Of a stretch of 64,000 nt of DNA, positions 17,255 to 60,859 are shown piece after piece. A program made the position numbers and the translations under genes. Source of the DNA: Octopus vulgaris (lineage: Eukaryota); assembly GCA_951406725.2 (NCBI GenBank), contig OX597824.1:12462001-12526000 (forward strand), in the 5' to 3' direction. The notes under the pieces were generated by a model that was given only the letters and a program-made list of their open reading frames with translations, was not told where the DNA came from and ran no database searches. Each line of letters begins with the position of its first letter. Within the stretch, counting starts at the first letter, position 1.

Positions 17255-17621
17255 ATGGATTTTTCACCATTATATTTTATAGAGAATGTTAGTGTCCAAA
17301 GTTTGTTATTTGGATTAGTTATTTTACTGCTTATGCGATGGTTTATGGCGCTACCAAAATCTAACTGCAATTTACCACCGGGTCCTAGAGCTCTTCCAAT
17401 AATTGGAAATCTACTTCAGGTCCTTTCCATTACCGAATTTTATTCAATGTTGAAAGAGCTCAAAAAACAATATGGCGATATTTTTAAACTCAAAATTGGT
17501 CCATATAACTACGTGTTTGTATGTAAAACTGAAACGATTTTGGAAGGACTAGTAAAAAAAGGACAACATCTGAATGGAAGGAGTTCACTCTATGTTTTAG
17601 ATAAAGTATTCCAAAACAAAG
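17255..17621 (+). CDS. CYP copy A exon 1
   Basis: MDFSPLYF...[13 protein letters not shown]...FQNKG, donor GTAAGT at 17622. Confidence 0.93.
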
Positions 17622-20600
17622 GTAAGTCATTAATTTACTTTAATTAATGTATTCATGTGCTCATATGTATGTAGACAGACAGACAGACAGACAGACAAAC
17701 AGACAAACAGACAAATAGATATTCATATATCTTGGACTGCAATTATTCTGCGGCACCAATTGACACACCAATATTTGAACTTAGATTTCAAATGCCGCTG
17801 GGGCCGATTTTCCTTTCATTCTTTCGGGTTCCATAAAATAACTACCAGTTGAACACCGGTGTCAATTTAATCGACTTACTACTTTCGCGATTTTAAATCA
17901 AAATTTGAATTCAGAGCGTAATGGGTCGGAGGAGTGCCGGAGAACGTTTTAATCCGCTCTCAATCGCTTCTGTATAGCTTCCACCCTTATAGAAGAAGAA
18001 GAATTTCTCGGTGGTAATGGTAATCACAGTGGTTATGGAGGCGACACAATGCGAGCAAGTTATTTATATATATGTGTATGTACATACAAGTGTACGTGTA
18101 TATACATAAAGAGAGTGGAAGAGAGAAATGGGATCTCAATATCAACTCTCGTGGGAACCCAACGAACTACTCATGAAATCATAATGAAATCATGATGATG
18201 ATGATGATGATAACTGTAGAAGTAGTGGGGGAGCACCATAGCCGTGTGTTGAGAGGAATTCTTTGGGGGTTTGGATAATTCCCCTTGGGAAACATGGGTA
18301 TTTCGTTCAACATCCTCAAACAACCTTTCTTCAAGGACCTTTTGAGCCGGATGAGACCCACCTGCAAGGTCATGCGCTGACTATCTTGATATGAGACCAC
18401 TATGTCGCGCACATATGGTTGTGATGCATGTGCCTAGTGTACCCTTATCAGACGGGTTGTCATGGTGGGTATACTGGGCTTCGTATATTTTATCCCAGTG
18501 TCACTTTGATGGCATGCACTGATCCCTCACTGAATAATAATAATAATAATAATAATAATAATAATAATAATAATAATAATAATAATAATAATAATAATAA
18601 TAATAATAATAATAATAATAATAATAATAATAATAATAATAATAATAATAATAATAATAATAATAATGATGATAATAATAATAATAGGCTTACCATCCCT
18701 GCAAGAAGTGCAAAAGATTGTCTTAACTGGTACATCACACGTATTGAGAAGAGCATTGTCGATGTGAGAATTGTTGCTGCTCATGTATTTTAATTTAAAA
18801 TGAACGAACTATTGAGTTTGGTTTAATGGCCTACCAATGTATACTATGAGTTTCTTTGCCCTAGGAGTCGGGAAGACACTCGGCAAGAAATGGAAGCAAA
18901 TTTGAAAGAAGAAGAAGAAAAAAAAAAAAATAATAGTAATAATACTAATAATAATAATGGTTTCAAATTTTGGCACAAGGCCAGCACTTTCTGGGAGGAG
19001 GATAAGTCGATTACATCGACCCCAGTGTTCAATTTGTAGTTCTTTTATCGACCCCCGAAAGGATGAAAGGCAAAATGGGTAAACATAGTTAATATTTCCA
19101 CTAGCAGCCCGTTACTAAATTAATCGGTGCCGTAAATCTCTAACAATTCTTGGTTACAGACAGCAGTGTGATGTTACTAAATAGTTAAGTTGTACCGTCA
19201 CAGCGACCCAAACGACTTTAATGCAGACACTATCTTTCAACAGATATACGACTCTGAAGACACAAAGATATGTTATCTTATATACTTTATCTGTTCACTT
19301 TTACTTGTTTATTTCTTTTACTTTTTATTCACGACCTCTTCTTTTGAATTTATGGGATTATTGTATTTATTTTTTGTCTGTGTATTTTATTAGTATTCTT
19401 ATAGGCGCAGGCATATCCATGTGGTAAGGCCGTGAGCTGGCAGAATCGTTAGCACACCGGGCGAAATGCTTAGCGGTTTTTCGTCTGCCGATAGGTTCTG
19501 AGCCCAAATCCGCCGAGGTTGACTTTGCTTTTCATCCTTTCGGGGTCGATAAATTAAGTACCAGTTACGCACTGGGATCGATGTAATCGACTTAATCCGT
19601 TTGTCTGTCCTTGTTTGTCCCCTCTGTGTTTAGCCTCTTGTGGGTAGTAAAGAAATAGGTATTTCGTCTGTAGTTAAGTTCTGAATTCAAATTCCACCGA
19701 GGTCGACTTTGCCTTTCATCCTTTCGGGGTCGATAAATGAAGTACCAGTTACGCACTGGGATCGATGTAATTGACTTTATCCCTTTGTCTGTCCTTGTTT
19801 GTCCCTCTATGTTTAGCCCCTTGTGGGCAATAAAAGAAATAAGCTTGCTTTCCAATTACATGGTAACACATTCAGTCCCACTGCGTGATGATACCTGAGA
19901 CATCTGTCTTCTAAATGTAGCCACGGGCCAACCAAAAGCTTGTGAGTGGATTTGGCTGACAGAAACTGAAAGAAGTCTGTAGCATATATACCTGTATATA
20001 ACTATATATGTATATATATATATATATATATATATATATACAACAAAAAGGCAAAAGAAAAGATTCCAATGCCAAATATGCCGAAATATAGACTTATTCG
20101 TCAATAACCATATAATTTATCACTATAAGAACGCGTGCACAAGGGACTTGTTATCAAAGAATGTATCTATGTATTGTAGTATTTTGTGACAACCGGTTAC
20201 TAACACAACCAAGCTTTTACATGTTACTTTTGACAATCTTTTTCTAAAAAGTGAAACCGGTAAAGTAGATAAAGAACTTCTAAAATTGCATTTTCAAACC
20301 TTCTTTCATATATAATTCCACTCGTGCGGTCCCTTACAACTCCACTTTGTTTTATATATATACATATATACTAGCAGTATCGCCCGGCGTTGCTCAGGTT
20401 TGTAAGGGAAATAACTATAAAGCATTTTTAGAGAGTTATAGCCAAAAAATAGCAAAAAAATGGGAAAAAAATGATGGTAAATTTCTTTTTGAGAGTTAAA
20501 AAAGGTGGAGTTGCGTCCCCTAGACAGTTTGTGGTTTGTGTTTCTGATTCTCGACCCCATGTCGAATTTATCGATATTTTTCAGAACTGGGGGAACTTTT

Positions 20601-58899: not shown

Positions 58900-59130
58900 A
58901 TTTCTTTACTACCCACTAGGAGCTAAACACAGAGGAGACAAACAAGGACAGACAAACGGATTAAGTCGATTACATCGACCCAAGTGCGTAACTGGTACTT
59001 AATTTATCGACCCTGGAAGGATGAAAGGCAAATCGACCTCGGCTGAATTTGAACTCGGAACGTAACGGCAGACTAAATACGGCAACGCACTTCGCCCGGC
59101 GTGCTAACGTTTCTGCCAGCTCGCCGCCTT
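58900..59130 (-). mobile_element. SINE family 2, full length
   Basis: Reverse complement of 4457-4691. Confidence 0.8.
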
Positions 59131-60859
59131 GTTTGTGTATATGCATGTGTATGTATGTATGTATGTATGTGCATATATATGTATGTGCATATATATATAT
59201 GTATGTGTGCACATATATGTGTATATATGCGTATATGTATGTATATATGTATATATGTATATATATACATGTATATATGTATATATGTATATATGCGTAT
59301 ATGTATGTATGTGTCCATGCATATATATGTGTATGTGCGTATTTATATATGTATGTGTATACGTGTGCATGTGTGTGTATGTATATATACGAGTGTGTAT
59401 GTATATATGTATATATATATGTATATGTATGTGCGTATATATGTATATATGTGTATATGTATATATGTATATATGTGTCTAGGAGTGTACATGTATATGG
59501 GTGTATCCATTTTACACATACATGTTTTTTTCTGTATATATGTTTACATCTAGTTGTTTTGATTATATACCTGTACATGTTTATTTATGTAGGTGCGTGT
59601 ATGTTGGTTTTTTTATGTGTATATGTTTGTATATTTATATCCATATGTGTATGCATGTATACATATGTATGTGTGTATATATATATTTGTGTATGTATAT
59701 ATGTGTGTGTGTGTGTGTGTGTGTGTATGTATATATTTGTGTATGTATATATATATATATATATATATATATATATATATATTACTATTATTTTTCATAT
59801 ACCTATGTGAGTATTTTTTTCCTGTACATACATCCATATATTTCTCGTGTGTAGTTCGTATGTATGTTGACAAAAAATAAATACAATAATCCATAAATTC
59901 AAAAGAAGAGGTCGTGAATAAAAAGGAAAAGAAATAAACAAGTAAAAGTGAACAGATAAAGTACATATTAGATAACATATCTTTGTGTCTTCAGAGTCGT
60001 ATATCTGTTGAAAGATAGTGTCTGCATTAAAGTCGTTTGGGTCGCTGTGACGGTACAACTTACCTGTTTAGTAACATCACACTGCTGTCTGTAGCCAAGA
60101 ATTGTTGGAGATTTACGGCACCGATTAATTTAGGAACGGGCTGCTAGTGAAAATATTAACTATGTTTACCTACTTTGCCTTTCATCCTTTCGGGGGTCGA
60201 TAAAAGAACTACAAATTGAACACTGGCGTCGATGTAATCGACTTACCCTCCTCCCACAAAGTGCTGGCCTTGTGTCAAAATTTGAAACCATTATTATTAT
60301 TATTATTATTATTATTATTATTATTATTATTATTATTATTATTATTATCGTTACCGCGTCGAGCATAATGCTTAGCGGAAATTCGTCTGTCTTGACGTTC
60401 TGAGTTCAAATTCCGCCAAGGTCAACCTTGCCTTTCATTCTTTCGAGGCCGATAAATTAAATGCCAGTGAAAGACTGCGGTCGATGTAATTGACTAGTCC
60501 TCTTCCCCAAAATTCAGGCCCTGTGCCTATATTATTATTATTATTAATATTATTGGGATAAAATATACGAAGCCCAGTATACCCACCATGACTACCCGCC
60601 TGATAAGGGTACACCAGGCACATGCATCACAAACATATGTGCGCGACATGGGTATCTCATATCAAGATAGTCAGCGCATGATCTTGCAGGTGGGTCCCAT
60701 CCCGCTCAAAAGGTCCTTGAAGAAAGGTTGTTTGAGGATGTTGAACGAAATACCCATGTTTCCAAAGAGGAATTATCCAAACCCCAAAGAATTCCTCTCA
60801 ACACACAGCTATGGTGCTCCCCCACTACTTCTACAGTTATCATCATCATCGACATAATT

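What the first reader, a model, noticed from the sequence alone, without database searches (positions are those of the whole stretch)
17255..60850. ~43 kb palindrome holding two convergent cytochrome P450 paralogs
Seen: ~20 kb arms mirror exons 2-8, introns, embedded TE remnants and ~4.8 kb of 3' flank around a ~3 kb spacer; the stop codons are 11.7 kb apart. The ORF track hides this because the exons are short. Inference: an inverted duplication that retained both reading frames. Such structures can undergo arm-to-arm conversion and inversion.
Basis: seen in the sequence. Interest (0 to 1): 0.75.

Follow-up and report, generated by a model that had tools for sequence, protein, structure and literature searches.

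The report
Mirror-duplicated octopus P450 gene pair
An octopus gene cluster holds two intact detoxification-type cytochrome P450 genes facing each other in a roughly 43-kb mirror-image duplication that is about 3% diverged; the copies have likely swapped patches of sequence, but this is a familiar kind of gene-family expansion rather than a new mechanism.

Summary
Confirmed, and mostly ordinary. The arms (18,200-~38,080 and ~41,265-60,850) differ at 3.05% of non-coding sites and by several 0.5-1.2 kb arm-specific inserts. Gene A (+, 8 exons, 498 aa) and gene B (-, exons 2-8 in the window) are both intact CYP2-like P450s, with stop codons 11,735 bp apart. They match the first two of at least 11 Octopus vulgaris P450 models on one chromosome. 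A haplotype mis-join is unlikely: divergence is 2.5 times the published heterozygosity, and O. sinensis has separate A-type and B-type proteins. First, a locus-specific 270-bp inverted pair at the centre is only 87% identical, so it is an older layer. Second, the paralogs are exon-scale mosaics, which points to patchy arm-to-arm exchange; chimeric assemblies remain a caveat. Amino-acid-changing divergence at substrate-recognition sites is 8.4% against 3.05% neutral (p about 0.006, but 0.04 with wider site limits). At 97% it fails the >99% criterion of primate X/Y palindromes. Orientation was not tested with long reads, and B's exon 1 lies outside the window.

The parts
18200..38080 (+). left arm (from intron 1 of gene A to ~4.8 kb past its stop)
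41265..60850 (-). right arm (intron 1 of gene B to its 3' flank)
17255..17621 (+). gene A exon 1 (ATG, membrane anchor, PPGP); not mirrored inside the window
21543..21768 (+). gene A exon 2 (WxxxR)
23780..23906 (+). gene A exon 3
25942..26098 (+). gene A exon 4 (left out of public model CAI9729725.1)
27299..27435 (+). gene A exon 5 (helix I, AGTDTT; left out of public model)
31544..31640 (+). gene A exon 6 (ExxR)
32165..32371 (+). gene A exon 7 (PERF motif)
33144..33322 (+). gene A exon 8 coding part to stop (heme Cys); AATAAA at 33,664
57108..57333 (-). gene B exon 2
54101..54227 (-). gene B exon 3
52055..52211 (-). gene B exon 4
49564..49700 (-). gene B exon 5
46742..46838 (-). gene B exon 6
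46009..46215 (-). gene B exon 7
45058..45236 (-). gene B exon 8 coding part to stop; AATAAA starting at 44,715; exons 2-8 translate to the last 375 aa of CAI9729726.1 (P0018)
38492..38764 (+). older inner inverted pair, left copy (3' end of a dispersed repeat + 162-bp locus-specific segment X)
40137..40386 (-). older inner inverted pair, right copy (X'), 87% to the left copy
38765..40136 (.). unmirrored centre: a ~400-bp dispersed repeat (also at 20,357-20,764) and an (AC)n-rich array
56275..57056 (.). 780-bp insert present only in the right arm (includes a dispersed-repeat copy)
34749..35258 (.). ~500-bp insert present only in the left arm
28380..29333 (.). ~0.9-kb stretch present only in the left arm
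43260..44228 (.). ~0.95-kb stretch present only in the right arm

Best explanation
The window holds an inverted duplication of about 43 kb that places two intact CYP2-like P450 genes tail to tail at one end of an octopus P450 cluster, and its arms have likely exchanged patches of sequence by gene conversion while the substrate-contacting residues likely diverged under selection. Shown: the mirror structure, both open frames, 3% arm divergence, arm-specific inserts, and an 87% inner pair. Inferred: the duplication is older than the O. vulgaris/O. sinensis split (2.5 My in PMC10700109) and younger than the O. bimaculoides split (34 My). The arms would pair and overwrite each other in short tracts, which would lower non-coding and silent divergence, leave the innermost 270 bp behind microsatellite arrays unconverted, and make exon-scale mosaics among paralogs. 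Both genes would be microsomal mono-oxygenases with somewhat different substrate pockets, probably for dietary or xenobiotic compounds (inferred from the family, not tested).
For: Structure and frames. All six P450 motifs checked are present in A and in P0018 (B); Pfam p450 E 7.5e-118 for P0018. Paralogy older than speciation: O. sinensis P0060 differs from A at 2 of 123 residues in exon 1 and 0 in exon 3, while P0015/P0024/P0017 differ from B at 8 of 338, 13 of 375 and 16 of 498. The close group is one clade (100/100) apart from O. bimaculoides P0003/P0004. Exchange: A's signature residues are split between two O. sinensis proteins (exons 1 and 3 in P0060; exons 4-5 in P0059). B carries A-type A125, D145, I189 in exon 2 where its O. 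sinensis counterparts P0015/P0024 have V, E, V, and 125 and 145 lie in a 176-site identical run at 21,432-21,633. B and the third paralog C differ at 2 of 123 residues in exon 1 but 28 of 375 elsewhere (p 0.016). Differences are overdispersed along the arms (variance/mean 1.9-3.0; 0 of 1,000 shuffles). The inner pair differs at 32 of 249 sites (p 1e-11 against 3.05%) and is not a dispersed repeat (1-2 contigs per run in 4 runs). Selection: 9 of 107 amino-acid-changing sites differ in substrate-recognition sites (8.4%, p 0.006 against 3.05%), 23 of 787 elsewhere.
Against: There is no recent long conversion tract: the longest identical run (224) is within shuffles (p 0.25). Mosaic proteins can also come from chimeric assembly, polishing or gene models, and most O. 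sinensis copies sit on 36-47 kb contigs. The share of A/B changes in substrate-recognition sites (10 of 40) is no higher than in B against O. bimaculoides (25-28 of 120; p 0.36-0.49), and the excess over neutral weakens to p 0.04 with wider, recalled site limits. dN/dS about 1.4 is not different from 1 (p 0.55), and the absence of frameshifts is not significant (P 0.22), so relaxed selection fits as well. The dispersed-repeat tails of the inner pair are no more alike (85%) than unrelated copies. No long reads were available for orientation, and no expression data were seen.
Confidence: 0.68

Rival explanations
1. The duplication is real but has simply aged without meaningful exchange. It arose once by fold-back at a pre-existing small inverted repeat (the 87% pair), and the mosaic proteins come from chimeric assemblies or gene models.
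For: Fold-back priming at natural inverted repeats makes inverted duplications (PMC10622511, abstract) and predicts exactly a diverged inner pair with more similar arms outside. No 500-site window of the arms exceeds 6.6%, so no other unconverted 13% patch was seen. The longest identical run is not significant.
Against: Divergence is overdispersed. B holds A-type residues inside an identical DNA run where its O. sinensis counterparts differ. The inner pair is colinear with the arms (GATA array, repeat tail, X on both sides) and would itself need an earlier inverted duplication.
Confidence: 0.22
2. Gene A is a redundant copy drifting toward a pseudogene (relaxed selection) rather than a diverging enzyme. 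This can hold together with a real duplication.
For: Amino-acid-changing divergence outside the recognition sites equals the neutral rate (2.9% against 3.05%). A has more private residues than B (about 11 against 3 by my count from the column list). The public model of A skips exons 4-5 in frame, which would remove helix I.
Against: All six motifs and all 7 introns' GT-AG ends are intact. An A-type gene is also full length in O. sinensis (P0060). Changes are concentrated in recognition sites.
Confidence: 0.2
3. Assembly artefact: two haplotypes joined back to back, a fold-back chimeric read, or a mis-oriented contig.
For: The region is rich in long microsatellites. No spanning long read was seen. 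The left inner segment X was found in only 2 of 4 runs. More close copies seem to exist than are annotated, which stresses assemblers.
Against: 3.05% divergence with kb-scale inserts, against 1.22% heterozygosity. 40 of 498 residues differ and both types exist in O. sinensis. X and X' with their different inner flanks are both present in runs X1 (depths 41.8, 47) and X2 (19.3, 9.0). A fold-back read would give near-identical arms.
Confidence: 0.07

Closest known systems
Recent tail-to-tail linked duplicates in animal genomes (PMC3194840; 9 passages read)
   Same: Multi-exon paralogs in convergent orientation, tens of kb apart, low dS. Tail-to-tail pairs make up 8-21% of linked duplication events in the species rows seen.
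   Different: Here the whole unit, with introns and 4.8 kb of flank, is still alignable, and an older inner layer is visible.
Inverted-repeat gene pairs of Caenorhabditis, e.g. the convergent hsp-16 palindrome (PMC1803023; part 1 of 4 read)
   Same: Paralogous gene pairs inside inverted repeats that predate speciation; conversion proposed as the maintaining process.
   Different: Those arms are up to 100% alike and more alike within than between species. Here A and B are closer to their O. sinensis counterparts than to each other, so homogenisation is only partial.
Primate X/Y palindromes (PMC8327919, 12 of 18 passages read; PMC3723533, search listing only)
   Same: Arms over 8 kb, short spacer, protein-coding genes in the arms; meets the >95% candidate screen.
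   Different: 97% rather than >99% identity; kb-scale arm-specific inserts; detoxification enzymes rather than testis genes; no evidence of a sex chromosome.
Vertebrate CYP2 clusters such as CYP2ABFGST on human chromosome 19 (cluster mentioned in PMC8469730 passage; its inverted-duplication origin and CYP2A6/2A7 conversion are recalled, not read)
   Same: Clustered CYP2-like P450 paralogs, recent copies, hybrid or converted forms, variation at substrate-recognition sites.
   Different: An independent octopod expansion; 8 coding exons here against 9 in vertebrate CYP2 genes (recalled); no substrate known.

Membership tests
Cytochrome P450 superfamily | PF00067 over the full length | tested here: met
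   P0018 residues 41-489, 394.7 bits; exons of A hit p450
Cytochrome P450 superfamily | Heme motif FxxGxRxCxG, ExxR, helix-I AGxDT, WxxxR, PERF | tested here: met
   all present in A and in P0018/B; motif patterns recalled
Cytochrome P450 superfamily | Heme binding and mono-oxygenase activity | not testable with these tools
   needs expression and assay
CYP2 clan | Closest characterised relatives are CYP2-family enzymes | tested here: met
   38 of 39 solved-structure hits at E<=1e-60 are CYP2B/2C/2A/2D/2E/2R; the last is CYP17
CYP2B subfamily (database label '2B4-like') | >55% identity to, and grouping with, vertebrate CYP2B (threshold recalled) | tested here: not met
   octopod proteins form their own clade (100/100) apart from bat CYP2B11; exon 1 is 39-48% identical to mammalian CYP2B11-like proteins
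Large palindrome as defined for the primate X (PMC8327919) | Inverted arms >8 kb, <500 kb apart | tested here: met
   ~20 kb arms, centre 1.4-3.2 kb
Large palindrome as defined for the primate X (PMC8327919) | Arm-to-arm identity >99% | tested here: not met
   96.9%
Large palindrome as defined for the primate X (PMC8327919) | Arms more alike within than between species (ongoing conversion) | tested here: not met
   protein level only: A-B 40 of 498; A-P0060 23 of 498; B-P0017 16 of 498; orthologous DNA not available
Concertedly evolving paralogs (partial) | Incongruent relationships along the gene / conversion tracts | tested here: inconclusive
   exon-scale mosaics; 86 of 231 site pairs incompatible, no null computed; overdispersion but no significant long tract; chimeric assemblies not excluded
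Fold-back inverted duplication | Short pre-existing inverted repeat at the centre, also present in the unduplicated ancestor | tested here: inconclusive
   87% inner pair exists; ancestral locus not available (no genome held)

The most novel reading that the evidence does not exclude
The mirror structure is several times older than its 3% arm divergence (the 13%-diverged inner pair marks the original event) and works as a P450 shuffler: arm-to-arm conversion and crossover inversions swap exons carrying substrate-recognition sites between convergent paralogs, giving chimeric enzymes that differ between octopus species and perhaps between individuals.
Probability: 0.3. Interest if true: 0.55.

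Novelty: new member of a known kind. Interest (0 to 1): 0.3.

Why it matters
It corrects a public gene model (A is a full 498-aa P450, not 400 aa) and shows that this octopus P450 cluster is young, multi-copy and probably under-assembled. If the exchange is confirmed, it is a compact autosomal-type example where conversion, inversion and selection on enzyme specificity can be measured together in a cephalopod, with a dated inner layer as an internal control. It does not point to a new mechanism.

Tried and rejected
No whole genome is held, so gene C's orientation, B's exon 1 and synteny could not be read. I first read residues 145 and 189 as species-specific shared states; one search overturned this, because O. 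sinensis P0060 carries the O. vulgaris states. I tested whether the inner 87% pair is two copies of a common repeat: rejected for segment X (1-2 contigs per run at 80% likeness). X was not covered in runs X4 and X5; a hole proves nothing and I do not count it. Contig depth over exons 6-8 was often about 4-8 times the depth at X/X', but the tool warns that this is no copy number, so it is only a hint of further close copies. Positive selection over the whole gene is not supported (dN against dS p 0.55; against non-coding p 0.36). Rfam on 33,300-45,100 gave 74 matches, all below gathering scores and mostly miRNA models on microsatellites; no hammerhead. Read-through hairpin RNA across the centre was considered, but each gene has an AATAAA ~340 bp past its stop and no RNA run was laid. 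Pfam did not name the transposon-like remnants. Paper searches for this locus or for octopus palindromes listed nothing on it; subscription papers and supplements were not seen.
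Full report
Observation. After masking tandem repeats, a self-comparison shows one colinear reverse-strand chain from 18,212/60,838 to 37,926/41,471. Chained unique 18-mers give 12,100 ungapped bases at 97.4% from 18,200/60,850 to about 38,080/41,265. A piecewise global alignment gives 355 differences in 11,524 unmasked sites: 318 of 10,418 non-coding (3.05%) and 37 of 1,106 exonic. The arms also differ by inserts found on one side only, for example 780 bp at 56,275-57,056, about 500 bp at 34,749-35,258, and about 0.9 kb each at 28,380-29,333 and 43,260-44,228. The mirror is far beyond chance. Mirroring starts at 18,200, not 17,255, and nothing left of it matches the 3 kb right of 60,850.

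Genes. Gene A (+) has 8 exons from 17,255 to 33,322, a 1,497-nt frame and 498 aa, with no internal stop and GT-AG at all 7 introns. Gene B (-) has exons 2-8 from 57,333 to 45,058, also open; the stops are 11,735 bp apart. B's translation equals the last 375 residues of P0018 (CAI9729726.1, Octopus vulgaris), and P0001 (CAI9729725.1) equals A without exons 4-5. B's exon 1 therefore lies beyond the window according to that model. A third close paralog, C, is P0002 (CAI9729727.1). Searches list 11 P450 models between CAI9729725 and CAI9729739 on a contig of the same length, so A and B are the first-numbered members of a cluster. All six motifs checked are intact in both. 38 of 39 solved-structure hits are CYP2 enzymes, but in a tree of 29 proteins the octopod sequences form their own clade, so '2B4-like' is only a best-hit label.

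Real or artefact. The reference-genome paper for the species gives 1.22% heterozygosity, and 2.5 and 34 My for the splits from O. sinensis and O. bimaculoides (PMC10700109; 12 of 19 passages seen; I did not establish directly that the window comes from that assembly). The arms differ 2.5 times more than that. A and B differ at 40 of 498 residues, and both types exist in O. sinensis. P0060 differs from A at 2 of 123 residues in exon 1 (10 from B) and 0 in exon 3. P0015, P0024 and P0017 differ from B at 8 of 338, 13 of 375 and 16 of 498. In public short-read contigs, 4 of the 24 runs listed were laid. Over exons 6-8 of A, 21 of the 40 listed variant letters equal arm B's letter, 27 once a shifted gap is allowed for; 72 rows were not shown. 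Run X4 has two contigs over 32,107-32,226, one identical to A and one with 6 differences, at equal depth. The other 13 listed letters match neither arm, which hints at further close copies. Both inner ends, with their different inner flanks, occur in X1 and X2; X4 and X5 show only the right one. X1 or X2 may be the source sample, so this counts as at least one independent holder. Orientation itself rests on the assembly alone.

An older inner layer. It consists of a dispersed-repeat tail followed by a 162-bp segment found nowhere else in the window. None of the other 7 repeat copies is followed by it, and only 1-2 contigs per run lie on it. On both sides the order is GATA array, repeat tail, X. 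Two readings fit: the remnant of the original duplication left unconverted, or a small inverted repeat that seeded a fold-back (PMC10622511, abstract only). I lean to the first, but the data cannot separate them.

Exchange between copies. Differences cluster along the arms (variance/mean 1.9-3.0; 0 of 1,000 shuffles; 500-site windows range from 3 to 33 differences), but the longest identical run, 224, is not unusual (p 0.25). The proteins are mosaics. A's signature residues are in P0060 for exons 1 and 3 and in P0059 for exons 4-5. B has A-type residues at 125, 145 and 189 where P0015/P0024 differ, two of them within a 176-site identical DNA run. B and C are nearly identical in exon 1 only. 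Of 231 pairs of informative sites, 86 are incompatible with one tree (7 sequences, without P0059/P0060, no null). In a tail-to-tail mirror, conversion gives such patches and a crossover swaps the 3' halves of the genes (inference). Chimeric assembly or polishing could imitate all of the protein evidence.

Selection. In exons 2-8, 29 codons differ by amino acid and 6 silently, of 376 (dN 0.037, dS 0.026); this is not different from neutrality. With substrate-recognition sites taken from PMC8469730 (passage read) and mapped through a bat CYP2B11, 10 of 40 differences fall in 56 of 498 positions (p 0.008; p 0.066 with wider limits recalled from Gotoh). Divergence at amino-acid-changing sites there is 8.4% against 3.05% non-coding (p 0.006; 0.04 with the wider limits), and 2.9% elsewhere. 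The share is no larger than against O. bimaculoides, so it is a family trait. Diversifying selection on the pocket, with conversion lowering the neutral baseline, fits; so does relaxed selection on A.

Comparison. Tail-to-tail pairs are 8-21% of recent linked duplication events in the animal rows seen (PMC3194840, passages). Convergent inverted gene pairs kept alike by proposed conversion are described in Caenorhabditis (PMC1803023, part 1 of 4). The structure passes the >8 kb and >95% screen of primate X palindromes but fails their >99% definition (PMC8327919, passages), so it works partly like one without being one. Earlier notes of this scan report another ~35-kb palindrome and an exon-swapping inversion in the same genome (unchecked), so such structures are not rare here. 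Searches listed no paper on this locus; supplements were not read.

Verdict. Real, intact and ordinary in kind; modest extra interest from the older inner layer and the mosaic paralogs. Interest 0.3.

Noticed in passing
window 61,300-64,000 (-): Decayed non-LTR retrotransposon-like sequence in intron 1 of gene B, broken by stops and frameshifts; it ends against triplet arrays at the outer edge of the right arm. It looks like a restriction-like-endonuclease (R4/Dong-type) element (label recalled; no Pfam hit).
   Followed up: partly
window 25,942-27,435: The public model of gene A (CAI9729725.1, 400 aa) skips exons 4-5 in frame although both exons and their splice sites are intact; probably an annotation error.
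   Followed up: partly
window 9,742-10,761 (+): 339-codon stop-free stretch whose C-terminal part resembles a GIY-YIG endonuclease of a Penelope-like element (by eye, recalled); no significant Pfam hit. Part of its downstream flank (11,254-11,604) is copied at 26,422-26,971 with an inverted piece.
   Followed up: no
window 21,977-22,789 and 55,151-56,084: Reverse-transcriptase-like remnant mirrored in intron 2 of both genes, so it predates the duplication or was converted; label by eye.
   Followed up: no
window 24,639-24,980 and 53,115-53,456: Mariner-like transposase remnant mirrored in intron 3 (Transposase_1 only E 0.13); it overlaps the most alike 500-site window (3 differences).
   Followed up: partly
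window 33,194-33,693 / 45,186-44,686: The end of exon 8 and the 3' UTR form the most diverged part of the arms (33 of 500 sites), twice the average.
   Followed up: no
O. sinensis proteins P0016/P0059 and P0017/P0019: Each pair is annotated as isoforms with two different last exons, one of them from a more distant paralog type; either read-through splicing within the cluster or merged gene models.
   Followed up: no
Argonauta proteins P0009, P0022, P0023: Three near-identical copies form their own clade, suggesting independent recent expansion of the same family.
   Followed up: no
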